In this document: one piece after another, positions 22 to 27,008 of the stretch
Position numbering within the stretch: position 1 is the first letter of the stretch
Layout of the letters: every line of letters starts with the position of its first letter
Assembly (NCBI GenBank): GCA_050014495.1
Contig: JBEKDF010000034.1
Span: forward strand, 1 to 32,743
Origin: Candidatus Bathyarchaeia archaeon
GTDB lineage: Archaea > Thermoproteota > Bathyarchaeia > TCS64
Direction of reading: 5' to 3'
DNA length: 32,743 bases
The notes under the pieces: model-generated
The model's database searches: none
The model's input: the letters and a program-made list of their open reading frames with translations, nothing else
What the model was told of the DNA's origin: nothing
Translations under genes and position numbers: made by a program

Positions 22-582
22 TCACTCTTGAACAACGATGGGAAAGCCCTCTCCCAGCTCCCCTTCTCATAGTAAATCATGTTCCCTCTATAGCTAGAAT
101 CTACTCTGTACATCATTTTCGCCACCTCAAGGGCAAGGTACTCAAAGTCAGCGTAGTAGAGGCTACTGATCCTTGACCTCTTATTAGCATCCATAATAGG
201 CTTGAACTTAGCCCAGGTATGGGGCACCGCCGTGTTACTCACTGCCCACAGAGTCTTGATCTATCACCCCTGATCGGTATTGAGAACCGAGAAGCTCACA
301 CGAGTTCCATATGGCGTTCCTCTTAGCGTAGTACTCAGGGTTTGTCTTTGGTCCATACTTTTCGTTGAAGTCTTCTGGTTCGCTCCATTCGGCTGCCATA
401 ACATCAAGCCATCTTCGGCCTCCTTCTTCTGATATGAAGGTCTGCATCAGTGTTGATGCGAGTGAGGCTCTCCTGTTTCTAGTTGTCTCCCTCAGGTTCA
501 GGATGTAGTAGAATGCTGCTATGCAGACGCCGATCGCGGCTGCTACCCATGACACCGGCTGTAACAAGCTAAGGTCTACCAA
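18..582 (-). pseudogene. Frameshifted DUF4760-like membrane-anchored protein (paralog of 649..1197)
   Basis: ORFs 235..582 and 18..242 join into one ~190 aa protein (..GVID/IKTLWAVSNTAVPHTWAKFKP..) if a frameshift near 258-262 is corrected; the two halves resemble the N- and C-halves of the neighbouring gene. Confidence 0.7.
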
Positions 583-602
583 ACAAGTTCACGAATAACA
601 CT

Positions 603-627
603 CAGGTGGAAATGGGGATAAGGCTAT
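603..627 (+). repeat. GGATAAG junction site, type A (CAGGTGGAAATGGGGATAAGGCTAT)
   Basis: 23/25 identical to 13673-13697; lies between two paralogous genes. Confidence 0.85.
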
Positions 628-648
628 GGAAGATGTAAACACAAACAA

Positions 649-1197
649 CTAACCCTTGAACTCATCAGGCACCCTGATCTTCAACTCGGGATGCTCCCTA
701 CCATATTCCACCACCCTCTTTGCGAGATATTCCTGCTCAATACCGTACCTCGGGAAGTCCCAAGCCTCCCTACACTTCAGTATGCCCTGACCGAACTTTT
801 CCCACCACGTAAGAATAGTGCCCGAGCAGAGCTCGGATACTAGCCTGACATCGACGAGGTTCTCCCTCACAAGGACACCCATTCCCTCCAAGTGCATACC
901 AAGAGCGTAGAATGAGTCCCTGAGTTCATCATTCTTGACCATCTCATCGAAGTCTTTCACCTCGTGGAGATTCAATCCCATCGCAATATTATGTGCAGAA
1001 AGAAACTCCTTGGTGGCCTCAGTCCTATATATGTCCATAAAGAGCTGAGCTTGTCTCGTTTCAAGGGTCTGTTCCTGGGATCTCGCGGCGATTTGCTGTG
1101 TCTTCATGTTGATTCTGAGTGTGAACATGTAGTAGACTGCTGCCACGGTCACACTTACTGCGGTAACCAATACGCCAATCGTCTGAACGTCAATCAT
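649..1197 (-). CDS. DUF4760-like protein with N-terminal TM helix
   Basis: 182 aa; N-terminal TM (IGVLVTAVSVTVAAVYY), ETRQAQLFMDIY and EGMGVLVRENLVD segments; family name recalled, not searched. Confidence 0.7.
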   Translation of the reverse strand: MIDVQTIGVLVTAVSVTVAAVYYMFTLRINMKTQQIAARSQEQTLETRQAQLFMDIYRTEATKEFLSAHNIAMGLNLHEVKDFDEMVKNDELRDSFYALGMHLEGMGVLVRENLVDVRLVSELCSGTILTWWEKFGQGILKCREAWDFPRYGIEQEYLAKRVVEYGREHPELKIRVPDEFKG

Positions 1198-4369: not shown

Positions 4370-4586
4370 GTCCGTCTGTTTGTTTGGTTGTTTCCCTTTC
4401 GTCCTAGAGAGAGTGGGAGAGAGTATGAGAGAGAAGAAAAGGGTTTAGGTTTGGGCCATAGTCTTATCACACACACTTGCTTCTTTATGCTTACGCTCAT
4501 ACGTACGTAACTATCTTATCCTTTCCCTTTACTCTTCAATACTCCCCCCTACTCTCCCTACGGACCAACATAAACAAACAACGGAC
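4370..4586. repeat. Imperfect long inverted repeat enclosing two GATAAG-type sites
   Basis: 4370-4450 approximates the reverse complement of 4520-4586; ATAGTCTTATC at 4458-4468 and ATCTTATCC at 4513-4521 lie inside. Confidence 0.55.
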
Positions 4587-6545: not shown

Positions 6546-6574
6546 GGGCCATTGTCTTATCCCCCAACCCAAAA
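6546..6574 (-). repeat. GGATAAG junction site, type B
   Basis: Reverse complement TTTTGGGTTGGGGGATAAGACAATGGCCC. Confidence 0.8.
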
Positions 6575-6705
6575 ACACGGCGCATACATTTGTATTCGAC
6601 TCGAGTTCAGAGATTACAATTGTAAATGTCCACAATTAATAGATAATTAACTCTACTCGACTCGGGGTGCGTGCGCACCCTGTGGATTGGAGGTTGAGTA
6701 GTTAG

Positions 6706-8393: not shown

Positions 8394-8657
8394 CTACTCC
8401 CCCACTGGGGAGCTGAGAATTAACCCGCGGTGCGCCTCAAGGACCTCACTCAGCTGCTCCTCTGATAGATCGACTCTGAGTGTACCGTTTACACCGATGA
8501 TCTCCAGGACATCGCCTTCGGCGATGGAAATCTTCGTCAGCTCCCCGAGGCTGCCCTCAAAGAGCACGCGGTCGTGGGCTTCGTTTGAGATAGAGATGTT
8601 CTTAATGTAAGCCTTGGACTTCATCTCGACTGAGAACGCGTGTTCCATATGCACCAC
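8394..8657 (-). CDS. Small hypothetical protein
   Basis: 87 aa (likely start MEHAFSV at 8648); coding-like composition. Confidence 0.65.
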   Translation of the reverse strand: MVHMEHAFSVEMKSKAYIKNISISNEAHDRVLFEGSLGELTKISIAEGDVLEIIGVNGTLRVDLSEEQLSEVLEAHRGLILSSPVGE

Positions 8658-10993: not shown

Positions 10994-11023
10994 TTTGGGT
11001 TTGGGTTTGGGGGATAAGACTAG
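10994..11023 (+). repeat. GGATAAG junction site, type B (TTTGGGTTTGGGTTTGGGGGATAAGACTAG)
   Basis: Matches the reverse complement of 18066-18090. Confidence 0.85.
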
Positions 11024-11095
11024 CTGCTTCATGCTTTTTTCAACGATTTTGCCAAAGTCTTCTGGATCAAACTCCAAAAACAAAACGTACTTCAT
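11021..11095 (-). pseudogene. 5' stub of a small DUF3303-like gene cut at a junction site
   Basis: MKYVLFLEFDPEDFGKIVEKSMKQL after a GGGGA RBS, then runs into the repeat; first 13 nt identical to the start of 21154..21438. Confidence 0.6.
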
Positions 11096-11127
11096 TTATT
11101 ATCCCCAGTTAAGGAGGGGAGGATTGA

Positions 11128-11152
11128 GCCTATAGTTTTATTGGTGAATAAT
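11128..11152 (+). repeat. Partial copy of the 49-bp CCTATAG repeat
   Basis: 23/25 match to the 22802-22850 copy. Confidence 0.65.
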
Positions 11153-11199
11153 TCTAGTTAATCAAAAACGATATAAATCGAAAGGTTTAGCTCACATTT

Positions 11200-13555: not shown

Positions 13556-13616
13556 CTCTAGCTATCGAGTGCTCTCTTAGCTGTTGACCTCGGAACCCCG
13601 AGTGGAGTGGAGGAGT

Positions 13617-13665
13617 AAGGTGCCTATAGTTTTGTTGGTAAATTATCCATAATTATCGGAATAAT
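13617..13665 (+). repeat. 49-bp CCTATAG repeat, copy 1
   Basis: 45/49 identical to 22802-22850. Confidence 0.85.
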
Positions 13666-17380: not shown

Positions 17381-18020
17381 CTAGATTACACCCTTTTGAC
17401 GTAGTCTCCCGAACTCCTCCTGTGTAAGCCTCAATAAGCCCATGAAAACCGCATCATTATCCTCGCCGAGGCTTGGCGCGGGCCCCCTCGGCCTCGGATC
17501 CGTTTCGGATATCTTTATCGGATTCCCCTGAAGCTTGATCTTCCCCAGCCCCGGCTGCTCGACCTCAACCACCATGCCCCTAGCCTTAGAAATATGTGGG
17601 TCCTCTGAAGCATCCTTAACATTGTACATTGGGCAAGATGGAATCCTCCTGTCGTTAAGCATCTGGACAATCTCTCCCATCGTCTGCTTCTGTGTCCATT
17701 CCTCGATAATTGAACGAAGCTCGGCATGGTTTTCGACTCTGAGCTTGTTTGACTTAAACCTCGGGTTGCTTCCGAGCCATGATAACCCCGATGTCTCCAG
17801 GAACCTAGCCCAGATCGCATCGTTTGCGATGGCTATCACCACCCAGCCGTCACACGTCATGAATGTGTCGTAAGGGTAGATGAACTCGTATCTGTTGCCA
17901 ATCCTTTGAGGGATCACCCCCTCTGAGAAATATTTCTGAGGGATGTTCTCCAATGCGGCGTAAACAGAGTCCACCAATGAGACATCCACAAGTTGCCCTC
18001 TCCCCGTCTGAGCGCGCGCG
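17381..18020 (-). pseudogene. 5'-truncated CaiB/BaiF (family III) CoA-transferase
   Basis: Only the C-terminal ~210 aa remain (TGRGQLVDVSL..PYDTF..GPAPSLGE); homology begins at GCGCGCGCG 18012-18020. Confidence 0.8.
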
Positions 18021-18065
18021 AGACATTTCTCACATATGTCCCAGATAAGTAAATCCTTCGTTTCT

Positions 18066-18090
18066 ACAGTCTTATCCCCCAAACCCAAAC
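18066..18090 (-). repeat. GGATAAG junction site, type B
   Basis: Reverse complement GTTTGGGTTTGGGGGATAAGACTGT. Confidence 0.85.
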
Positions 18091-18181
18091 GATTTATACT
18101 TAGTTGATTCTTATATATTCAAGGCTCTTTTATTATTTACTAATACTGGACCTTACAAAAATTGGAGAAAACTGGTGAAAA
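18077..18181 (+). promoter_or_regulatory. 105-bp promoter/leader, copy 1
   Basis: 103/105 identical to the reverse complement of 21441-21545; TTTATA and TTATATA boxes; GGTGA RBS. Confidence 0.85.
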
Positions 18182-18184
18182 TAA

Positions 18185-18502
18185 ATGAAGTTTATAGCCG
18201 TACACAAGTGGACCAAAGAAACAAATATCGCATGCACGAAAGACATGGTAGCAGGCTTTACAGCCCTACTTAAGGGAGAGACTCCTAAAGACGTAGTAAT
18301 AGAAAACACTTGGACAAGAGACGATTATGGAGCTTTCTGTTGCTGGGATGCGCCAAACAAAGAGGCTCTAACTAATCTGTTTAAGCAATACCTGCCTATA
18401 ATGTTGAAATACACCGAGTTTATACCCGTCTCGCAGGCGTTCCCCGCAACCATCGAGTACGAACTCGGTTTACTCAAGATGATTACTGATATGGCGAAGT
18501 AG
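18185..18502 (+). CDS. Small DUF4242/GYD-like protein
   Basis: 105 aa; MKFIAVHKW..GAFCCWDAPNKEAL; T-tract after the stop. Confidence 0.75.
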   Translation: MKFIAVHKWTKETNIACTKDMVAGFTALLKGETPKDVVIENTWTRDDYGAFCCWDAPNKEALTNLFKQYLPIMLKYTEFIPVSQAFPATIEYELGLLKMITDMAK

Positions 18503-18630
18503 ACTTCGCCTTTCCCTTTTTTTAAATATACTTTTCGAGCGCGCGTTCGTATATCCTTTTGTCTCTAGGGATATATCTTGAAATACGATGGTATATCCTT
18601 CCCTGAGAACCCCTATACTCCTTATGCGCA

Positions 18631-19058
18631 CGCGCTGGCCTGTCCCGAAATCAATTATGACTGGTATTAAATGGTTTAAAATCCGCATTCCCGTTTACAA
18701 CCTGAAATAGAGCCTTTCTACCCGAAGGATTATGAAGCCGTGGAGCGACCCACATAGACTCAGCTACAGGAAAGGAGCCTGATAATGAATGATAAGCAAC
18801 CTATGAAGGGCCTGGAAGACCATGGTTATCGTTCTCAACCGCTTTCAGCTATGGATTGGTCTCTGAGAAGCGTCGAAACTCGTTGACGGGTGTTGTTTCT
18901 ATGTTTTTCGACGGAATCGTCTATTCCGTGAGTTGAGGGGATGGCTTCCGCGAGAAGGGTAGGGGTTTGTGATATGTCAGAATTTGCCTCAAAATCCGTT
19001 AAAGGGAATTAAGACCATTATAAACCATCTTAAATCAATTTAGGGACAGGGCAGCGCG
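18631..19058. mobile_element. Putative 428-bp MITE / non-autonomous IS remnant
   Basis: Terminal inverted repeats 19/21 (CGCGCTG[G/C]CCTGTCCC[G/T]AAAT), with weaker similarity over ~50 bp; no recognisable ORF. Confidence 0.5.
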
Positions 19059-19359
19059 CAGCGTCGAAAGCGAACTTCCTAACCATGTTCCCTCATTAAA
19101 TGCAAAACTTAGACCTTAGTTGCGCACAGTAATTTACGCGCCCTAGTTTGATTCAGTACCTCTATTATTCAAGACCTACAGTAGTCTAAACGCGTCATAA
19201 CAATAAACGATATATATTGCTTTAGAGTGTGCGCTCAAGATTGTTTATCGTTGGGGTTCGAGGATAACTAGATAAATGCATTCCTAGACTATAGAATAGC
19301 AATAAAGAAATTCAACAGGAAATATAGTGCGCGTACGTGTTTGTGTTTAATATTCTACA

Positions 19360-20028
19360 TCATTTCACCTTGACAACGGGCGGCACGTGATACTCGCCGT
19401 TCAGGATGGCCGCGCCGGGCTGGTACACGCGCAGCCAGAGTATGAATTTGCCCGCAGGCGCGGGCAACCAGTTGGATTCATGGCCTGCCGGAGCGGCGTT
19501 CTGAATGTAAATGTCGATGAAGCCGTCGGCGTTTGGCACGAGTCCCGACCGGTCGCTCACGCTGTACCGATTTATTGGATTCGGTACAAAGCGATTGTGC
19601 TCATCGCCCATAGTCAGCGACCAGAATGCATCGTTCGGCGGGAGTTGTCCCGCCGGGAAGTGCATGATGTAGTCGTGCTCTCCGGAGAGTAGGTGACCCG
19701 GGCCATCTACGTCCGTCGTCCAGTACATCGCCTCCTTCTGTACGTTTATCGGGCCAGGAAATACTTGGGCGCACGCGGCTCTGAACAGAAAGCCGTTGCC
19801 AGGCTCGCCACATCCAAACATCGTGGTCCAGCCGTTGATCTTCTTGGTCTTGATCCTCGCGTAAATTTGAGCCGTGACAAATGCTAGCCCGAAGCCGATG
19901 AGGAAGCCTTGCACGACGTCATTGCGCACGGTTCTTGAATTGGGGTTGAAGAAGAACGAATAGACGAAGAAAAAGCCGATTATCACGCCGTCGAGTGCTG
20001 CCAGATAAGTGTATGTTCTGCCGCTCAT
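19360..20028 (-). CDS. DUF1214-domain protein
   Basis: EAMY..L.G...Y..HFPAGQLPP..AFWSLTM..NPINRYS..NWLPAP..LRVYQP. Confidence 0.85.
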   Translation of the reverse strand: MSGRTYTYLAALDGVIIGFFFVYSFFFNPNSRTVRNDVVQGFLIGFGLAFVTAQIYARIKTKKINGWTTMFGCGEPGNGFLFRAACAQVFPGPINVQKEAMYWTTDVDGPGHLLSGEHDYIMHFPAGQLPPNDAFWSLTMGDEHNRFVPNPINRYSVSDRSGLVPNADGFIDIYIQNAAPAGHESNWLPAPAGKFILWLRVYQPGAAILNGEYHVPPVVKVK

Positions 20029-20615
20029 ACCGATCCCTCCTGGCTTAGCGGCGTGAAACGTATCTGTTCCGCGAGATGATGGGCGTTCGATAGGTCGACG
20101 TCGCTCTCCACGAGCACTCGGCCGAGGACCAGAACCGAGTTGTTCGGCGAGGAGATCTGTTTCATGCCGCTCGGCGCCTGTCCTTTCCGGTTCGGCCCTG
20201 TGATGAGGTAGTCGCCGGCTTCGGTTCCCGTGGTACGTCTGCCGACGTAGGCGAAAACAGTGTTGTTCGACGGGTCAGTGAACTGCACGCTGTAGTAGCG
20301 GCTATTCATGTCCGGAACGTGCAGGACTTGCGGCCCTTTACTGAGGTCTAATACGCCGACCGTAAGGAGCGTGTCGCGGTTCACGCCGGTAGTCGCCAAG
20401 TTTGAGGCCGAGGCGGGAGGGTGGATGGGGTCTGCAAAGAGCGTTTGGGGCTCCGTATGGAGCGTATTGATCGGGATGGGGCCGTCGCCGAACCCTTTAC
20501 CGAGGATCGCTCTCTTGAACACGTATAGGATCATGCGTGGCCAATTGTAGGTGAAGAGGAACCATGTCACGAGCATGATCGAACCGAATATAAACAGATG
20601 TTCGGGCTCTATCAT
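20025..20615 (-). CDS. DUF1254-domain protein
   Basis: NRDTL..LDLSKGPQVLHVPDM..RYYSVQF.D..FAYVGRRTTGT.AG.YLITGP; ATGA overlap with the DUF1214 gene. Confidence 0.85.
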   Translation of the reverse strand: MIEPEHLFIFGSIMLVTWFLFTYNWPRMILYVFKRAILGKGFGDGPIPINTLHTEPQTLFADPIHPPASASNLATTGVNRDTLLTVGVLDLSKGPQVLHVPDMNSRYYSVQFTDPSNNTVFAYVGRRTTGTEAGDYLITGPNRKGQAPSGMKQISSPNNSVLVLGRVLVESDVDLSNAHHLAEQIRFTPLSQEGSV

Positions 20616-20749
20616 GATAAATTTACCTTTATACGCGCACATAAAATGTTGGCCGTATGTTTGATGAGGCGGTTTGCAGTGAAAAATGCCGGAGCTCCCC
20701 CCGCGATAATTCCTAACGTTAAAATAGCGATGATTGTCTTTTTCCGCAT
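20612..20749 (-). CDS. 45-aa signal-peptide-like ORF or gene stub
   Basis: MRKKTIIAILTLGIIAGGAPAFF..; its stop overlaps the ATG of the DUF1254 gene (ATGA). Confidence 0.35.
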   Translation of the reverse strand: MRKKTIIAILTLGIIAGGAPAFFTANRLIKHTANILCARIKVNLS

Positions 20750-20992
20750 AATGGGAACCCGCTTTTCACATTGTACTTTTCCTTTTCATCCATTATTAAC
20801 ATTCTCGTGCGCTCCCCATACTGGCGAACTGAAGGGATCGGTTGGTGCCTGCGCAGTCTAGTAGCCATTCTATGAAGTAAGCACCTAATAGAAATTCACC
20901 TATTGTGAACCTGCATCGCGCGCTCCGTTGCATGCACTCTGTACTCATAATCTTATTCTCACATTAACTCACTCATAGAAAATCTTATCCCA

Positions 20993-21023
20993 AAGTTACT
21001 TTGGCATAAGCCTCATCTTATGT
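20993..21023 (+). repeat. dif/cer-like site, copy 1
   Basis: AAGTTACTTTGGCATAAG-CCTCAT-CTTATGT(AAA), a dyad; 30/31 identical to 24480-24510. Confidence 0.75.
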
Positions 21024-21153
21024 AAAGGAGATTGATAAAGTAATTCGCTCTTCCTCCAAGGGCTTACTCACACCTCGACACAAGCGTTGACTAGTTATAA
21101 AAAAGGAGGTTAATTGTTCAAGTATCGTAATAGTTCGGAAAAGTCCTCTAGGT

Positions 21154-21438
21154 TTAGAATTGCAGCACTTCGTAGGTCTTTGTATAGGACATTGGAATCT
21201 CGGGATCCAGATTCCAAACTTTATCTCGGAAATCCTGGAAAGCATCGCGGTGCATATCAGTAGCATAGCCGATTACAGTATCTTCAACGCAGCCAAATAC
21301 GCGGCCGTTTGTTACTATCTCCACTTTATTATCCTTGCACAGCTTCTCATGCTTCTTCAGCCACTGTGCCCCCTTTTTAGGCCACTCTGCTACTGCTTTG
21401 TCTGACCACTTTGTGAAACACAGATAAACGTACTTCAT
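21154..21438 (-). CDS. Small GYD-like protein
   Basis: 94 aa from MKYVYLCFTKW; GGTGA RBS within the duplicated leader. Confidence 0.7.
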   Translation of the reverse strand: MKYVYLCFTKWSDKAVAEWPKKGAQWLKKHEKLCKDNKVEIVTNGRVFGCVEDTVIGYATDMHRDAFQDFRDKVWNLDPEIPMSYTKTYEVLQF

Positions 21439-21440
21439 TC

Positions 21441-21545
21441 TTTTCACCAGTTTTCTCCAATTTTTGTAAGGTCCAGTATTAGTAAATAATAAAAGAGCCT
21501 TTAATATATAAGAATCAACTAAGTATAAATCCTTTGGGTTTGGGG
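21441..21545 (-). promoter_or_regulatory. 105-bp promoter/leader, copy 2
   Basis: Inverted duplicate of 18077-18181. Confidence 0.85.
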
Positions 21546-21566
21546 CCATAGTCTTATCCTCCCACA
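21533..21566 (-). repeat. Composite junction site TTTGGGTTTGGGGCC-ATAGTCTTATCCTCCCAC (+ strand)
   Basis: Same architecture as 4441-4468. Confidence 0.8.
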
Positions 21567-21665
21567 TAACCCATATCGTGAGACCTCAAAGCCTCACCCT
21601 CCATTCGCCCTACATCTTGATTATAATGTTAAATAAAGATAAGATTTGCAAGAAATTGTTGCAAG

Positions 21666-21686
21666 TGGGTTTGGGGATTAGGCTAT
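21666..21686 (+). repeat. GGATAAG junction site, type B variant
   Basis: TGGGTTTGGGGATTAGGCTAT. Confidence 0.7.
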
Positions 21687-21747
21687 GGCTTCCCACCATT
21701 CCATTGCGCGCGAGTTATTAAAAAGTCGGGTGCTGAAGTTGAAAAAA

Positions 21748-22686
21748 TTAATTAAAGGTATAGATGGTGCCTACAGTATTGATAATGACTCGTCCCGGCA
21801 TTTTTTCTTTAAACTGATTGATAGCATTCCATCCTGTGCAGTGCATTGGTGCGACATAATCGGGGTTTATCTTTTTCATTTCTTCAATTGTCGCTCCTAT
21901 AATAGGTTCAAATTGCAGCCCCGTAAGATGGAAACCGCCCAATACAGCGTGGACCTTCTCTATTTTGGTGATTTTCTTAGCATACTTAACAGTGTTTATG
22001 ATCCCCGCGTGAGAACAACCGCTAATGACCACTAATCCCTTATCTTTCAAATTGACTACCAGTCCCTGGTCATCGTTAATAGGATCAACAACCCAGTTAC
22101 CGTTAATTTTCGCCTCCATCCCGGGAAACCCCTTTTCAAATGGTGTTACTCTTTCTACTTCTCCGGTTGCCATGATTAATCCCGATGCTAACGTCGAAGG
22201 TCCCAAGGATTCTAAGATTTTTGCCCCTGATTTCCTCAAGGATTCTTCCTCCAAAGAAGGCATATCAACGGGGTGGCTTAATGAAGGATTTTTGAGGCGG
22301 CGAATAAGGAAAGCATCAGGATGAAGAATAAGTGGGATCTCTTTTGTAGAACGACCTAATAGTTCCATAAGCCCGCCAGTATGGTCAAAGTGGCCATGGC
22401 TCAGAACGATGGATTCTATACTATCTAAATCGACATTTAGTAGTTTAGCATTGTGAAATAGACATTCTGCAGATACTCCCGAATCAAAAAGCACAAAATG
22501 TTCCTCTGAACCAGCACAGACCTTAAGAAAACACGAGAACCCATGTTCGGCAAGTAGCAACGTTGGAGGAGAAACCCAAGGCCGCCTATCAATTTTTGTG
22601 TCCTGCGCCTTGAATACATCCGTATAATTATCGACCAGGTTTAGCACTTCTAAGCGATCCGCTTCTCTTAGATTTAATTCACCCAT
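21748..22686 (-). CDS. MBL-fold metallo-hydrolase, MJ0301-like dihydropteroate-analog synthase family
   Basis: LVDN, AEHGFS, LFDSG, LSHGHFDHTGG, DDQ, GCSHAG, GGFHL, PMHCTG; likely start MGELNL. Confidence 0.85.
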   Translation of the reverse strand: MGELNLREADRLEVLNLVDNYTDVFKAQDTKIDRRPWVSPPTLLLAEHGFSCFLKVCAGSEEHFVLFDSGVSAECLFHNAKLLNVDLDSIESIVLSHGHFDHTGGLMELLGRSTKEIPLILHPDAFLIRRLKNPSLSHPVDMPSLEEESLRKSGAKILESLGPSTLASGLIMATGEVERVTPFEKGFPGMEAKINGNWVVDPINDDQGLVVNLKDKGLVVISGCSHAGIINTVKYAKKITKIEKVHAVLGGFHLTGLQFEPIIGATIEEMKKINPDYVAPMHCTGWNAINQFKEKMPGRVIINTVGTIYTFN

Positions 22687-22801
22687 TTGATCACCCATCG
22701 ATGACCTTGGTGGTTTTATTGTTACCATACTCCGAGTACCAAACATACTTCAACTTGAGATACGCCTCGGTGCGCACATGTTCACAAATAAGTGGAGAGG
22801 A

Positions 22802-22850
22802 AAGGTGCCTATAGTGTTATTGGTAAATAATCCATATTTATCGGAATAAT
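22802..22850 (+). repeat. 49-bp CCTATAG repeat, copy 2
   Basis: 45/49 identical to 13617-13665; followed by ATGCGCGCGCG. Confidence 0.85.
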
Positions 22851-24424: not shown

Positions 24425-24479
24425 ATTCACTTTGTCTATCAATCAAGAGCGACGCATCCGATAATCGAAAAAACTACCC

Positions 24480-24510
24480 AAGTTACTTTGGTATAAGCCT
24501 CATCTTATGT
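24480..24510 (+). repeat. dif/cer-like site, copy 2
   Basis: AAGTTACTTTGGTATAAGCCTCATCTTATGT. Confidence 0.75.
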
Positions 24511-24513
24511 GTA

Positions 24514-24538
24514 ACAGTCTTATCCTCACTTCCATCTG
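24514..24538 (-). repeat. GGATAAG junction site, type A
   Basis: Reverse complement CAGATGGAAGTGAGGATAAGACTGT; 3 nt from the dif-like site. Confidence 0.85.
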
Positions 24539-24621: not shown

Positions 24622-25260
24622 TCATGAGTTTTTCTCCTTCTCAATCCTCGGGGTGTATCTATCACAATCGAAGCAAAGCAACTCGGTGACACGGAGCATC
24701 TCTCGATTTTGTCCCTTTAACACTGGGAGGCTAGAATATGCGGGTAAAGTATATTCCCTTGCAGCGAATCTTTCATAGATCTTTTTAAAATTATCCGAGT
24801 TTGGCGTATACTTCCAATATTGACAATAACCATTCCACGAATAGTGACAGTCGATGGCTTTCACCTTCGCCCTCTCAAACCTTATGTCGAAGAGAGCTGA
24901 CTCGACTTCTGCCCTAGAAAACAAGGTCATTTCCCTTGTGGGGTATGTTAACGTTGGGTACAATGTTACATGATAGTTCGACGTTTGTTGTTGCGATTTG
25001 TCATAACCGGTATCATTTGCGGTTACATGGGATTTGTTTAGAGTATCAAGAAAGTCACGCAGCTCAGGTGTCAGAGGACCCAAGCCCTTTTCATCGCTTC
25101 CTCTTCTCGCAGATAGGTATTGTTTCCCGTTTACAGTTTTAACCCTGAAATTCCACCCATCTCGGTGAAATGCCTCGATTTCTTCCCAAGTGTTTTTATT
25201 GTGAGAAATAATGTACCCCCCTTGCACATCTCCCCATGTTCCCCAATATTCCCCTCCCAT
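24622..25260 (-). CDS. Hypothetical protein (mobile-element-like), Cys pairs near the C-terminus
   Basis: 212 aa; DCHY..YCQY and CFDC; start uncertain. Confidence 0.6.
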   Translation of the reverse strand: MGGEYWGTWGDVQGGYIISHNKNTWEEIEAFHRDGWNFRVKTVNGKQYLSARRGSDEKGLGPLTPELRDFLDTLNKSHVTANDTGYDKSQQQTSNYHVTLYPTLTYPTREMTLFSRAEVESALFDIRFERAKVKAIDCHYSWNGYCQYWKYTPNSDNFKKIYERFAAREYTLPAYSSLPVLKGQNREMLRVTELLCFDCDRYTPRIEKEKNS

Positions 25261-25468
25261 TTAATGTTTTACATAAGTTTGGAATATGTCTTCTTCGCGA
25301 AACAATCCTTCTTCCTTGATTCACTATATTTCCCCAGGTTTTTCACGTTTCCCCAAATAATTATGTAACTCCTAGGTTTTTGTTATGTTTCCCTTTTTTC
25401 CCATGTTCCTAAGAGAATAGGCTAGCCTAAAATAGGTGGATGGGGATATTTAATACTGGGAAAATAAC

Positions 25469-26338
25469 GTGTCGCACCTGATTTGTCCCTTATGCGGGTT
25501 GAATGTACCTCTTTCAAAACTGGATGAGGGGAATTTCCCCATCGACCTAAAGACTATCAGTTTTAAAAATCGGGGCTATAGAATGGGCTTCGGGGTCGAT
25601 GAAATAGTCTCCATTATGGGTGATGGGGAAATTACACCGATCATCGCCACAAGGATCAAGGAACTGTATGACTTTTTTGTAGAACACGGGGAAATCGATG
25701 CACCATTAGTGGATCCAAACTATGGATCAATCTTAATACAATTAAATAATTTAAAGAGACAATTATCCGGGGAGAAAACAAATAATCTATTTTTAAAAAA
25801 TAGGATAAATGAAGTGGAAGATGACTATGAACTGGATAGACAGGTCGACTACATTATTCGGGAGAGTCTGTGCGTTGGGAATGCCCGTCAGCAATTGACG
25901 GTTGATGAGAATGGGTGGACGCTAGCCATTTCATCTAAACCTGGTCAGCTAGAAATGTACCTGTTTCTGTTGATACTAGATATACCCAGCAAGCTAAAGG
26001 TGAGGCTATTGACTCATATTAAAGGCGACGAAAATCCAATCTTTTACAACAACATGTTGAAGTACTTCTCGAGGAGACAGAGCATCGCGGAGAGGCTGCT
26101 TGATTACGATAACGAGAACACGGTCGTAGAAGTGGATGAAACCGGAAAAAAAATCGAGCACATATTTAAACCCGTATATCGCCCAGAGTATGCTGGAAGA
26201 TCTATAGGCTTCGAACAGTTGAAGCGCATCGTAGAAAGCGCAAAGGAACACTCGGATGAGCCTGAATATATCGGTAAAACAATTATAGATGTAAAATATC
26301 CAAAAAAATTGGTGCTACCATACAGAGGAGAGGGCTAG
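25469..26338 (+). CDS. Hypothetical protein with N-terminal CxxC
   Basis: 289 aa; MSHLICPLCG; coiled-coil-like middle; AT-rich codons. Confidence 0.7.
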   Translation: MSHLICPLCGLNVPLSKLDEGNFPIDLKTISFKNRGYRMGFGVDEIVSIMGDGEITPIIATRIKELYDFFVEHGEIDAPLVDPNYGSILIQLNNLKRQLSGEKTNNLFLKNRINEVEDDYELDRQVDYIIRESLCVGNARQQLTVDENGWTLAISSKPGQLEMYLFLLILDIPSKLKVRLLTHIKGDENPIFYNNMLKYFSRRQSIAERLLDYDNENTVVEVDETGKKIEHIFKPVYRPEYAGRSIGFEQLKRIVESAKEHSDEPEYIGKTIIDVKYPKKLVLPYRGEG

Positions 26339-26404
26339 ATCACCTAGAGCGCGCACCCCACCTAAGGAGGTGCCCCACCGCTGATTTAGGTAGATAAGCG
26401 TGCG

Positions 26405-26421
26405 TGGCATAAGCCTCATCT
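26405..26421 (+). repeat. dif/cer-like site, partial copy 3 (left arm + spacer) at the island border
   Basis: TGGCATAAGCCTCATCT, 17/17 identical to 21002-21018. Confidence 0.65.
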
Positions 26422-26444
26422 AAGCGTCGCATACATCCTCCTGC

Positions 26445-26873
26445 ATGCAGCACGTCTACTTCGAGGTGAAGGGTGACCCGGTGCCAAAGGCACGGGCCCG
26501 AACGGTGCGAAAAGGCGGGAGGACATGGAGCTTCACCCCGAAGAAGGTGGCGGTATGGGAGAAGACTGTGAAGGAGGAGGCCGCTAAACACTTCGAGCAG
26601 CCCCTACACGGGCCGATACAGGTCTCCATGATATTCTACATGGACCGCCCGGAATCGAGGCGCAAAGACATCTGGGTCCCAACCACACCCGACCTCGACA
26701 ACCTCGAGAAAGCCATCCTCGACGCCCTAAACGGCGTCGCCTACGAGGATGACCGCTTCGTCGTCGCAAAGAACGCCCAGAAGAGATACATCCGAAGGGA
26801 CGAGCCAAGGGTCTGCATCAGGGTAACCAGCCTGAGCAAGCAGATCAATATCGAAGAGTTCACGAAGCAATAA
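26445..26873 (+). CDS. rusA: RusA-family Holliday junction resolvase
   Basis: G.PVPKARAR; PDLDNLEKAILDALNGVAYEDD catalytic motif. Confidence 0.9.
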   Translation: MQHVYFEVKGDPVPKARARTVRKGGRTWSFTPKKVAVWEKTVKEEAAKHFEQPLHGPIQVSMIFYMDRPESRRKDIWVPTTPDLDNLEKAILDALNGVAYEDDRFVVAKNAQKRYIRRDEPRVCIRVTSLSKQINIEEFTKQ

Positions 26874-26920
26874 AGAAGCTCCGATAAGGTTTTACAGTGG
26901 GTCCAGTCAACTCTAGCTGG

Positions 26921-27008
26921 GCCGGGGTAGCCAAGCGGACCACGGCGCCAGTCTTGAAAACTGGTGCTCCTTGCGAGCCCATGGGTTCGAATCCCATCCC
27001 CGGCGCCA
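26921..27008 (+). tRNA. tRNA-Ser (anticodon UGA)
   Basis: GCCGGGG/CCCCGGC acceptor stem, G discriminator plus CCA; CCAGT-CTTGAAA-ACTGG anticodon arm; long variable arm; ATGGG-TTCGAAT-CCCAT T arm. Confidence 0.95.

What the first reader, a model, noticed from the sequence alone, without database searches (positions are those of the whole stretch)
18077..21545. The same 105-bp promoter/leader in front of two different genes
18077-18181 and the reverse complement of 21441-21545 are 103/105 identical. Identity starts in the B-arm (CCCCAAACCCAAA), covers TATA-like boxes and the GGTGA RBS, and ends just before the start codon. Both ORFs begin ATGAAGT and then diverge with no obvious identity. Near-identical non-coding DNA before non-identical CDSs suggests a portable expression platform tied to the junction site, with swapped coding regions, or a strongly conserved cis-regulatory RNA.
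Basis: seen in the sequence. Interest (0 to 1): 0.72.

Follow-up and report, generated by a model that had tools for sequence, protein, structure and literature searches.

The report
Promoter-leader swapped between unrelated archaeal genes
Two small genes of a peat-dwelling archaeon that share no detectable sequence similarity sit behind the same 105-base control region, a predicted promoter with a likely folded RNA leader, which was likely copied from one gene onto the other by recombination, as has likely happened at least three times in this lineage.

Summary
The repeat is real (103/105) and not an assembly error. It is a predicted complete archaeal expression unit: BRE, TATA box, initiator, a 34-nt hairpin starting at the predicted +1, and an RBS. 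The family has 15 copies (one partial): 14 in 8 genomes of one Bathyarchaeia genus, one metagenomic. All precede short ORFs (85-105 aa where complete), probably all ferredoxin-like, from at least four groups that BLASTP cannot align. The leader moves independently of its gene. Copy 1 matches the ORF2-type leader at all 25 diagnostic sites upstream of the RBS, while ORF1's orthologues carry leaders only 70-82% alike. Two more within-genome pairs (95%, 86%) also precede unrelated ORFs, and trees reject inheritance with the ORF. The likeliest mechanism is gene conversion between dispersed leader copies, bounded by a junction tract and the RBS. The junction core lies upstream of 9 of 14 copies, in both orientations, and no integron integrase was found, so a dedicated platform is unproven. 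Closest known: putative mobile promoters. The scan has noted other shared Bathyarchaeia promoter modules on other DNA; sequence look-ups found none like this one.

The parts
18077..18181 (+). Leader copy 1 (105 bp): junction tract, predicted promoter, 5' UTR and RBS; ORF2-type sequence in front of ORF1
18085..18098 (+). Predicted BRE (18085-18089, CCAAA) and TATA box (18091-18098, GATTTATA); the last A of the TATA box is invariant in 14 copies
   Evidence: spacing as in PMC6640164 (passages); inferred
18121..18154 (+). 34-nt hairpin or dyad starting at the predicted transcription start (18121)
   Evidence: start site inferred from TATA spacing and a YR initiator in 12 of 14 copies
18174..18178 (+). 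RBS GGTGA; identity with copy 2 ends 3 nt downstream
   Evidence: sequence
18185..18502 (+). ORF1, 105 aa, predicted ferredoxin-like (beta-alpha-beta-beta-alpha-beta plus C-terminal helix); weak DUF3303 and SCO4226-like matches below cut-off
18493..18523 (+). Terminator-like hairpin and T7 run after ORF1
18066..18076 (+). Junction core ACAGTCTTATC (1 mismatch to ATAGYCTTATC), forward relative to leader 1
18019..18065 (+). Likely remnant of the 3' end of a DUF4760-family unit upstream of the core
   Evidence: resembles the ends of DUF4760-family genes printed; covered by a contig of another run; inferred
17381..18009 (-). Truncated CoA-transferase III gene (C-terminal part only), cut at a GC tract; full length (399 aa) in G016
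19360..20642 (-). DUF1254/DUF1214 gene pair, cargo between the two inverted leaders; in G016 it lies on another contig, next to another leader copy
21099..21104 (-). T6 run, likely terminator of ORF2
   Evidence: inferred
21154..21438 (-). ORF2, 94 aa, member of an unnamed family widespread in this archaeal family; likely ferredoxin-like
21441..21545 (-). Leader copy 2 (predicted BRE 21533-21537, TATA 21524-21531, start 21501, hairpin 21468-21501, RBS 21444-21448)
21548..21558 (+). Junction core ATAGTCTTATC, reverse relative to leader 2
21676..21686 (-). Second core facing the one at 21548 (inverted pair about 140 bp apart)

Best explanation
The 105-bp repeat is a predicted complete archaeal expression module (BRE, TATA box, initiator, a hairpin at the predicted start of the transcript, RBS) that a clade of Bathyarchaeia reuses in front of unrelated small genes, and the two window copies are near-identical because one gene's module was likely overwritten with the other's by recombination. 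The module is strongly constrained and dispersed in accessory DNA, so its copies would act as 75-95% identical targets for gene conversion. A conversion tract running from the C/A-rich junction tract on the left to the RBS region on the right would replace the whole leader and leave the ORF untouched, because the ORFs share only ATGAAGT. The donor was most likely the ORF2-type leader (about 70:30). The hairpin likely acts as RNA (5'-end protection or protein binding); a DNA operator over the start site is the alternative. Shown: identity, distribution, decoupling of leader and ORF, and where the identity ends. Inferred: promoter activity, start site, role of the hairpin, and the recombination route.
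For: Geometry: AAA at -34 to -32 in 12 of 14 copies, TATA box ending in an invariant A at -23, YR at -1/+1 in 12 of 14, AT-rich -11 to -2, matching P. furiosus positions (PMC6640164, passages). T-runs follow both ORFs. Constraint: ORF2 differs from its G016 orthologue at 17 of 285 nt, all third positions, while the leaders are 96-98% identical. Decoupling: at 25 diagnostic sites upstream of the RBS copy 1 follows the ORF2-type leader, and at none the ORF1-type. G015's ORF1 is 96% identical in protein but its leader only 70%. Nearest-neighbour pairs with unrelated ORFs: 98% (window), 95% (G016), 86% (G000), with support 97/99 (clade holding both window copies and G016's), 97/99 and 90/98. AU tests reject leader clades by ORF family (p 6e-5 and 6e-81). 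Both ORF families extend beyond the leader's range: the ORF2 family is in 43 of 79 genomes, and 5 of 30 fetched loci carry the leader, all in genus g1; 4 of 8 ORF1-family loci lack it. Partial leaders exist (L019, 3' half; window 11089-11110, last 22 nt behind another promoter), so breakpoints are not fixed. Hairpin: 88.6% of cells paired, 3 pairs with double changes, 0 of 500 shuffles as high, slid controls 26-47%; 10 G-U cells against 3 A-C; a copy with a 3-nt deletion keeps an 11-bp stem (z -4.2).
Against: No recombination intermediate or inversion joint between the copies appeared in the contigs laid. The core is upstream of 9 of 14 copies against 3.7% of random windows, which plain homologous recombination does not explain. 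All cargo ORFs are small and probably of one fold class, whereas free conversion of a generic promoter should also capture other genes, as the neighbouring D4 promoter does. The hairpin is weak in the window's two copies (-6.0 kcal/mol, z -0.1 and +0.3); the counts of pair types and of double-changed pairs do not exceed shuffles (290/500 and 189/500), and the 14 sequences are related. The direction is uncertain: this leader type also precedes ORF1 in another habitat. The 94-column tree has 7 of 11 inner branches unresolved.
Confidence: 0.62

Rival explanations
1. Dedicated platform: an undescribed site-specific system uses the ATAGYCTTATC core, with its C/A-rich tracts, and the RBS/ATGAAGT end to load different small ORFs behind a fixed promoter-leader, or to load promoter-gene units into arrays.
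For: 168 exact cores in the genome against 6 in the reversed control; 130 of 144 close neighbours co-oriented, about 600 bp apart. Core next to 9 of 14 leaders. All 8 leader-bearing genomes have 3 or more site matches (kin, not independent). Foreign genes are fused at the start codon behind the core's own leader. All three recent pairs end their shared sequence at the RBS/start region.
Against: The core is forward in 4 and reverse in 5 copies, 10-34 nt from the promoter, and not found at 2 mismatches or fewer in 5 (one masked by N). Partial leaders exist. The RBS is also where homology simply ends. None of 10 tyrosine recombinases reaches the integron-integrase cut-off (best 75.4 of 265 bits). 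No RVT_1 and no IS1595 transposase in G000. No core seen in the printed flanks of 8 DDE transposase ORFs.
Confidence: 0.17
2. Regulon without exchange: the ORFs are ancient paralogues of one superfamily that each kept the leader since duplication, under selection for a shared regulator or riboswitch.
For: All cargo ORFs are small and probably ferredoxin-like. The leader changes far more slowly than synonymous sites. Similar GGUUC...GAACC hairpins precede other small-barrel genes under other promoters (seen by eye, and the covariance model does not score them).
Against: Constraint cannot put 25 shared private substitutions in front of non-alignable ORFs. AU tests reject inheritance with the ORF. 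The leader was found in one genus only while both ORF families are wider.
Confidence: 0.08
3. The exchange history is as in the best explanation, but the 34-bp element is a DNA operator over the start site, bound by a dimeric repressor, and not an RNA hairpin.
For: It overlaps the predicted +1, a usual place for archaeal repressors (recalled, not from a call). Folding energy is weak and similar on both strands in several copies. The inner TATCA-N5-TGATA looks like a protein-binding dyad.
Against: The inner and outer arms have symmetry axes offset by one base. G-U cells outnumber A-C cells 10 to 3. One copy loses 3 nt between the arms and keeps a strong stem. No regulator gene recurs beside the copies in the four neighbourhoods mapped.
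Confidence: 0.11
4. Assembly artefact: one leader was placed twice.
For: The genome is a 92-contig MAG with 7.5% contamination; the 61-nt identical stretch breaks short contigs.
Against: The copies differ at 2 positions; independent runs and an independent genome hold both junctions.
Confidence: 0.02

Closest known systems
Putative mobile promoters (PMPs) and promoter reuse (Nijveen, Matus-Garcia, van Passel 2012, PMC3575422; part 1 of 2 read, which holds the main text)
   Same: Highly similar non-coding DNA (80% or more over 50 nt or more) upstream of non-paralogous coding sequences in one genome; some PMPs carry RNA motifs; the paper says the way they move is unknown.
   Different: Here the whole predicted promoter, 5' UTR and RBS move as one unit in an archaeon, the exchange recurs in three lineages with visible end points, and the cargo is limited to small genes of probably one fold class.
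Consensus regulatory sequences of early and anti-defence genes in archaeal viruses (PMC11065993; passages read; lead from earlier scan notes)
   Same: A conserved block around a BRE-TATA core precedes short, single, unrelated genes.
   Different: This one is chromosomal accessory DNA, with no match in IMG/VR; it includes a 60-64-nt UTR with a hairpin and RBS; copies share private substitutions, which points to exchange; no anti-defence role was tested.
Integron cassette arrays, including archaeal integrons (Ghaly et al. 2022, PMC9668308; passages read)
   Same: The surrounding DNA has co-oriented, site-delimited single-gene units about 600 bp apart.
   Different: No IntI above cut-off; the leader is a predicted promoter carried by each gene, not one array promoter; the core lies in either orientation.
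Promoter capture by duplication or IS (E. coli citT, L. lactis ldh; as cited in PMC3575422)
   Same: A gene comes under another gene's promoter through rearrangement.
   Different: Here one module of the same family replaces another, repeatedly, and no IS is adjacent.
DUF3303 / GYD / SCO4226-like dimeric alpha+beta barrel proteins (cargo)
   Same: ORF1 model: ferredoxin-like, best matches ClcF and TftG (Z 6.5) and SCO4226 (Z 6.2); one leader-linked ORF passes the DUF3303 cut-off (33.8 bits against 21.2).
   Different: ORF1 (13.3 bits) and ORF2 (no match) do not pass; Z under 8 may reflect a common fold only; no function shown.

Membership tests
Putative mobile promoter (PMC3575422) | 80% or more identity over 50 nt or more in the region 150-50 nt upstream of start codons in one genome | tested here: met
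   103/105; both differences lie in that region
Putative mobile promoter (PMC3575422) | Adjacent coding sequences not similar | tested here: met
   No BLASTP alignment; hhalign 0.2% and 0.5%
Putative mobile promoter (PMC3575422) | Acts as a promoter | not testable with these tools
   Sequence geometry fits; no expression data were available
Archaeal core promoter | BRE at -36 to -32, TATA at -30 to -23, YR initiator at -1/+1 | tested here: met
   Spacing holds in 14 of 14 copies (one has a 1-nt deletion), YR in 12 of 14; the start site itself is predicted
Known Rfam cis-regulatory RNA | Match to a curated covariance model | tested here: not met
   0 matches at E<=1 in 17900-21800; none over the leader in L122
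Structured cis-regulatory RNA (new motif) | Conserved pairing with covariation and strand bias | tested here: inconclusive
   88.6% paired, 3 double-changed pairs, G-U 10 against A-C 3; weak energies and only 14 related sequences
Integron cassette system | IntI-type tyrosine recombinase | tested here: not met
   10 of the 13 Phage_integrase matches of G000 scanned; best TIGR02249 score 75.4 of 265 bits; genome 96% complete
Integron cassette system | attC sites with the folded bottom-strand structure | not tested
   No attC model was run; the core with its arm is about 30 bp and purine-poor on one strand
Integron cassette system | Co-oriented array of single-gene units | tested here: met
   130 of 144 close neighbours co-oriented; 105 units listed. 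This concerns the junction site, not the leader
IS or MITE-borne promoter | Terminal inverted repeats shared with a transposase-bearing element | tested here: inconclusive
   No core seen in the printed flanks of 8 ORFs at the 13 DDE_Tnp_1 matches; true element ends were not mapped
DUF3303 (PF11746) | Pfam score of 21.2 bits or more | tested here: not met
   ORF1 13.3 bits, ORF2 no match; only the G000 C24 ORF passes
Dimeric alpha+beta barrel / ferredoxin-like fold | beta-alpha-beta-beta-alpha-beta topology | tested here: inconclusive
   Met for ORF1 (pLDDT 77.8 in the best of five models); the ORF2 single-sequence model is poor (pLDDT 48.7); Atlas features place both near DUF3303 clusters

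The most novel reading that the evidence does not exclude
This clade runs a combinatorial promoter-by-gene library. Short cores at module junctions are cut and rejoined through newly written telomere-like tracts ((CCCAAA)n, (CA)n, (GC)n), in either orientation, and whole promoter-plus-structured-leader modules (this one, the D4 promoter, the GCUCC/GGAGC leader) are exchanged among a large pool of small barrel proteins. That would be a programmed system for rewiring expression that needs no integron integrase.
Probability: 0.15. Interest if true: 0.8.

Novelty: new variant of a known kind. Interest (0 to 1): 0.4.

Why it matters
Promoter reuse has been catalogued in prokaryotes, but PMC3575422 says the way such promoters move is unknown. 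Here the end points are visible (junction tract on the left, RBS on the right), the same swap recurs in three lineages, and the module is small and complete enough to test in a reporter. It also yields a candidate archaeal 5' leader RNA absent from Rfam and links several unnamed small-protein families through one control element. If it is ordinary gene conversion, it is a clean example of regulatory rewiring in Bathyarchaeia. If the junction core drives it, it is a new kind of shuffling system.

Tried and rejected
Close paralogy of ORF1 and ORF2: rejected. A coding leader: the frame is open in some copies (P0003, P0023), but column variability by frame position was 0.12, 0.13 and 0.18, some copies have stops or a 1-nt deletion, and a search with the translated leader found only itself; rejected. 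RNAalifold proposed pairing of TACTTAGTT with the RBS region; it shows no double changes and TACTTAGTT lies upstream of the predicted start, so I do not rely on it. My first pair count had the outer stem off by one column (74.9% paired); one search is the corrected count. Viral contigs: 0. Rfam: nothing over the leader. The genome-wide census of shared upstream regions used a crude gene caller that missed ORF2's start and the D4 family; it gave 42 of 455 pairs without protein similarity, mostly core-related. A generic TATA-plus-hairpin pattern found 1 hit against 2 in the control, and the leader's covariance model did not score the other leader types, so common ancestry of those leaders is not shown. 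The sigma-70 promoter scan is uninformative for an archaeon. No RNA holder listed. The ORF2-family profile found no solved relative by sequence, and Foldseek gave no match at E<=0.001 for ORF1. Literature: 0 papers for Bathyarchaeia+cassette+tandem+recombination site and for Bathyarchaeia+DUF4760; none of the 15 listed papers held 'DUF3303'; two searches listed nothing on this element (listings only). The NAR 2012 PMP paper was not held, so its methods and supplements were not seen.
Full report
Observation. The two stretches match at 103 of 105 positions; the longest exact inverted match is 61 nt against 13-18 in shuffles. Identity begins at the C/A-rich tract and ends at GGTGAAAA. ORF1 (18185-18502, 105 aa) and ORF2 (21154-21438, minus strand, 94 aa) do not align by BLASTP or by profile. 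Both junctions occur in independent data: a 2727-nt contig spans copy 1 and both flanks with no difference, and 132-nt contigs in 2 of 4 runs bridge copy 2 into ORF2; genome G016 has copy 2 with ORF2; a freshwater run has this leader type joined to the ORF1 start behind another flank. Related records are titled Candidatus Bathyarchaeia or Bathyarchaeota, and most of the best holders are peat metagenomes.

The family. G000 has four copies. BLAST found the leader in 8 of 61 genomes and a covariance model in 7 of 79 genomes of the order, all in the same genus; many of these genomes are incomplete. One more came from a metagenome scan. I aligned 14 full copies and left out one partial copy (L019). 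Every copy precedes a short ORF (85-105 aa where complete; two are cut by contig ends): six ORF1-like, six ORF2-family (plus L019), one DUF3303 above cut-off, and one unassigned. ORF1 folds as a ferredoxin-like domain with best matches to ClcF, TftG and SCO4226 at Z 6.2-6.5. ORF2's model is poor, but Atlas features put both near DUF3303 clusters. So the cargo is probably one broad fold class made of families that do not align with each other.

Anatomy. With column 45 as +1, AAA falls at -34 to -32 (12 of 14 copies), a W-rich box ends in an invariant A at -23, and YR sits at -1/+1 in 12 of 14. These are the BRE, TATA and initiator positions given for Pyrococcus furiosus (PMC6640164, passages). 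A 14-pair hairpin runs from +1 to +34: 88.6% of cells pair, three pairs change on both sides, 0 of 500 shuffles reach that level, and slid controls give 26-47%. Wobbles favour the sense strand, 10 G-U cells against 3 A-C. Against this, the stem is weak in the window's copies (z about 0), two of five measures do not beat shuffles, and the sequences are related. An A-rich spacer, GGTGA and the start codon follow, and T-runs follow both ORFs. Each gene is thus a predicted self-contained unit. Rfam has no match.

Leader and gene have separate histories. ORF1's orthologues carry leaders 70-82% identical to copy 1, even one whose protein is 96% identical. At all 25 diagnostic sites upstream of the RBS, copy 1 follows the ORF2-type leader. 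Two more within-genome pairs precede unrelated ORFs, at 95% in G016 and 86% in G000. AU tests reject grouping of leaders by ORF family (p 6e-5 and 6e-81); the groups were defined by protein similarity, but after I had seen a first tree, and the alignment has only 94 columns. Both families extend beyond the leader's range: the ORF2 family has 99 matches in 43 of 79 genomes, and only 5 of the 30 loci fetched carry the leader; 4 of 8 ORF1-family loci lack it. The leader is also strongly constrained: ORF2 differs from G016's copy at 17 third positions while the leaders are 96-98% identical. So 98% identity means exchange on about the time scale of the split between these species' cassettes, not necessarily a very recent event.

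Relation to the junction site. The core ATAGYCTTATC has 168 exact copies in G000 against 6 in a reversed control. It mostly heads tandem DUF4760-like genes about 600 bp apart, mixed with unrelated cargo; an earlier scan note (e1-4619428) read a similar repeat in another genome as that family's start module. The fuller site pattern occurs in 13 of 79 genomes, 12 of them in this genus. A core lies upstream of 9 of 14 leaders (background 3.7%), forward in 4 and reverse in 5, at 10-34 nt; two others have a GC tract there. Upstream of copy 1 lie a CoA-transferase gene cut at a GC tract (full length in G016) and a likely remnant of a DUF4760 unit. No IntI, reverse transcriptase or IS1595 transposase was found.

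Mechanism. Most likely a constrained promoter-UTR-RBS module, dispersed among mobile single-gene units, is exchanged by gene conversion. In the window the tract runs from the 13-bp C/A tract to the RBS region, where G009's ORF1 leader is already nearly identical over about 30 nt. A single crossover between the inverted copies would swap the ORFs but not make the leaders identical, so a non-reciprocal transfer is needed (inference). The core and tracts likely move whole units and trim them just upstream of the BRE; whether an enzyme acts there is open. Partial leaders (L019; window 11089-11110) argue against fixed cut sites. Why the cargo stays within small barrel-like proteins is unexplained; shared ATGAAGT starts and selection for a common control signal are both possible.

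Comparison and verdict. The pair meets the sequence criteria for putative mobile promoters (PMC3575422) and resembles the shared regulatory blocks of archaeal viral early genes (PMC11065993). It fails the integrase test for integrons (PMC9668308). Earlier scan notes describe other shared promoter modules in Bathyarchaeia (unchecked); sequence look-ups found none like this one. It is a new variant of promoter reuse, with mapped end points and a candidate leader RNA. Interest 0.4. The bold reading, a programmed promoter-shuffling system, has probability about 0.15.

Noticed in passing
window 11112-11171, 13606-13665, 22791-22850 (repeat D4); L221-L233: A second shared promoter-like block (ATTTACCAAYAAMACTATAGGC with an upstream dyad) precedes a membrane protein, a metallo-beta-lactamase-fold gene, likely an alpha/beta hydrolase and a luciferase-like oxidoreductase (labels by eye), and several small barrel-like genes; matches in 5 of 18 genus genomes.
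   Followed up: partly
L196, L197, L201-L219 (G000 C15:5959-5987, C77:2398-2426); related at window about 8395-8416 minus strand: A nearly invariant motif GCTCC-N7-GGAGC-TATACAAGTACC just upstream of the RBS, 19 matches in 14 of 79 genomes of the order (0 in the control), often after a variable GGUUC...GAACC hairpin and before small barrel-like or secreted proteins; no Rfam match. Candidate new cis-regulatory RNA, possibly a pseudoknot.
   Followed up: partly
G000 genome-wide; window 4440-4468, 6551-6577, 10996-11023, 18066-18090, 21533-21558: Telomere-like (CCCAAA)n tracts of 1-4 units, and (CA)n or (GC)n variants, abut the core on either side and always read C/A-rich outward (35 of 64 tracts). 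They look like written filler DNA; no RVT_1 enzyme was found.
   Followed up: partly
G000 C15, C24, C50, C72, C74, C75, C77, C84; window 235-1197: Tandem arrays of DUF4760-like paralogues, each behind the core, with unrelated genes inserted in either orientation; some foreign ORFs are fused at the family's start codon (for example C50:9110, C72:791-1099).
   Followed up: partly
window 11023-11110, minus strand: D4-type promoter joined to the last 22 nt of the leader family (AACTGGGGATAATAAATGAAGT) and a small-barrel-like ORF broken after about 24 codons at a core.
   Followed up: yes
L172, L175 (G075 C29; G000 C14:85102-85416): ORF1 homologues in two genera share a third conserved upstream region of about 150 bp with CAAGGT...ACCTT pairing; the G000 copy has an in-frame stop.
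   Followed up: partly
window 21546-21688; G016 C13:152082-152188: Inverted core pairs 106-140 bp apart with no gene inside, MITE-like.
   Followed up: no
window 20977-21023 and 24477-24524: A 34-bp repeat (CCAAAGTTACTTTGGCATAAGCCTCATC...) next to cores, present with many different flanks in other runs.
   Followed up: no
window 24622-27008: Two ORFs with no family match and a RusA resolvase gene lie next to tRNA-Ser(TGA) at 26921-27008, which marks the edge between accessory DNA and housekeeping genes.
   Followed up: no
window 18600-19350: About 750 bp with no ORF of 80 aa or more downstream of ORF1; parts (about 18840-19060) are multi-copy in other runs.
   Followed up: no
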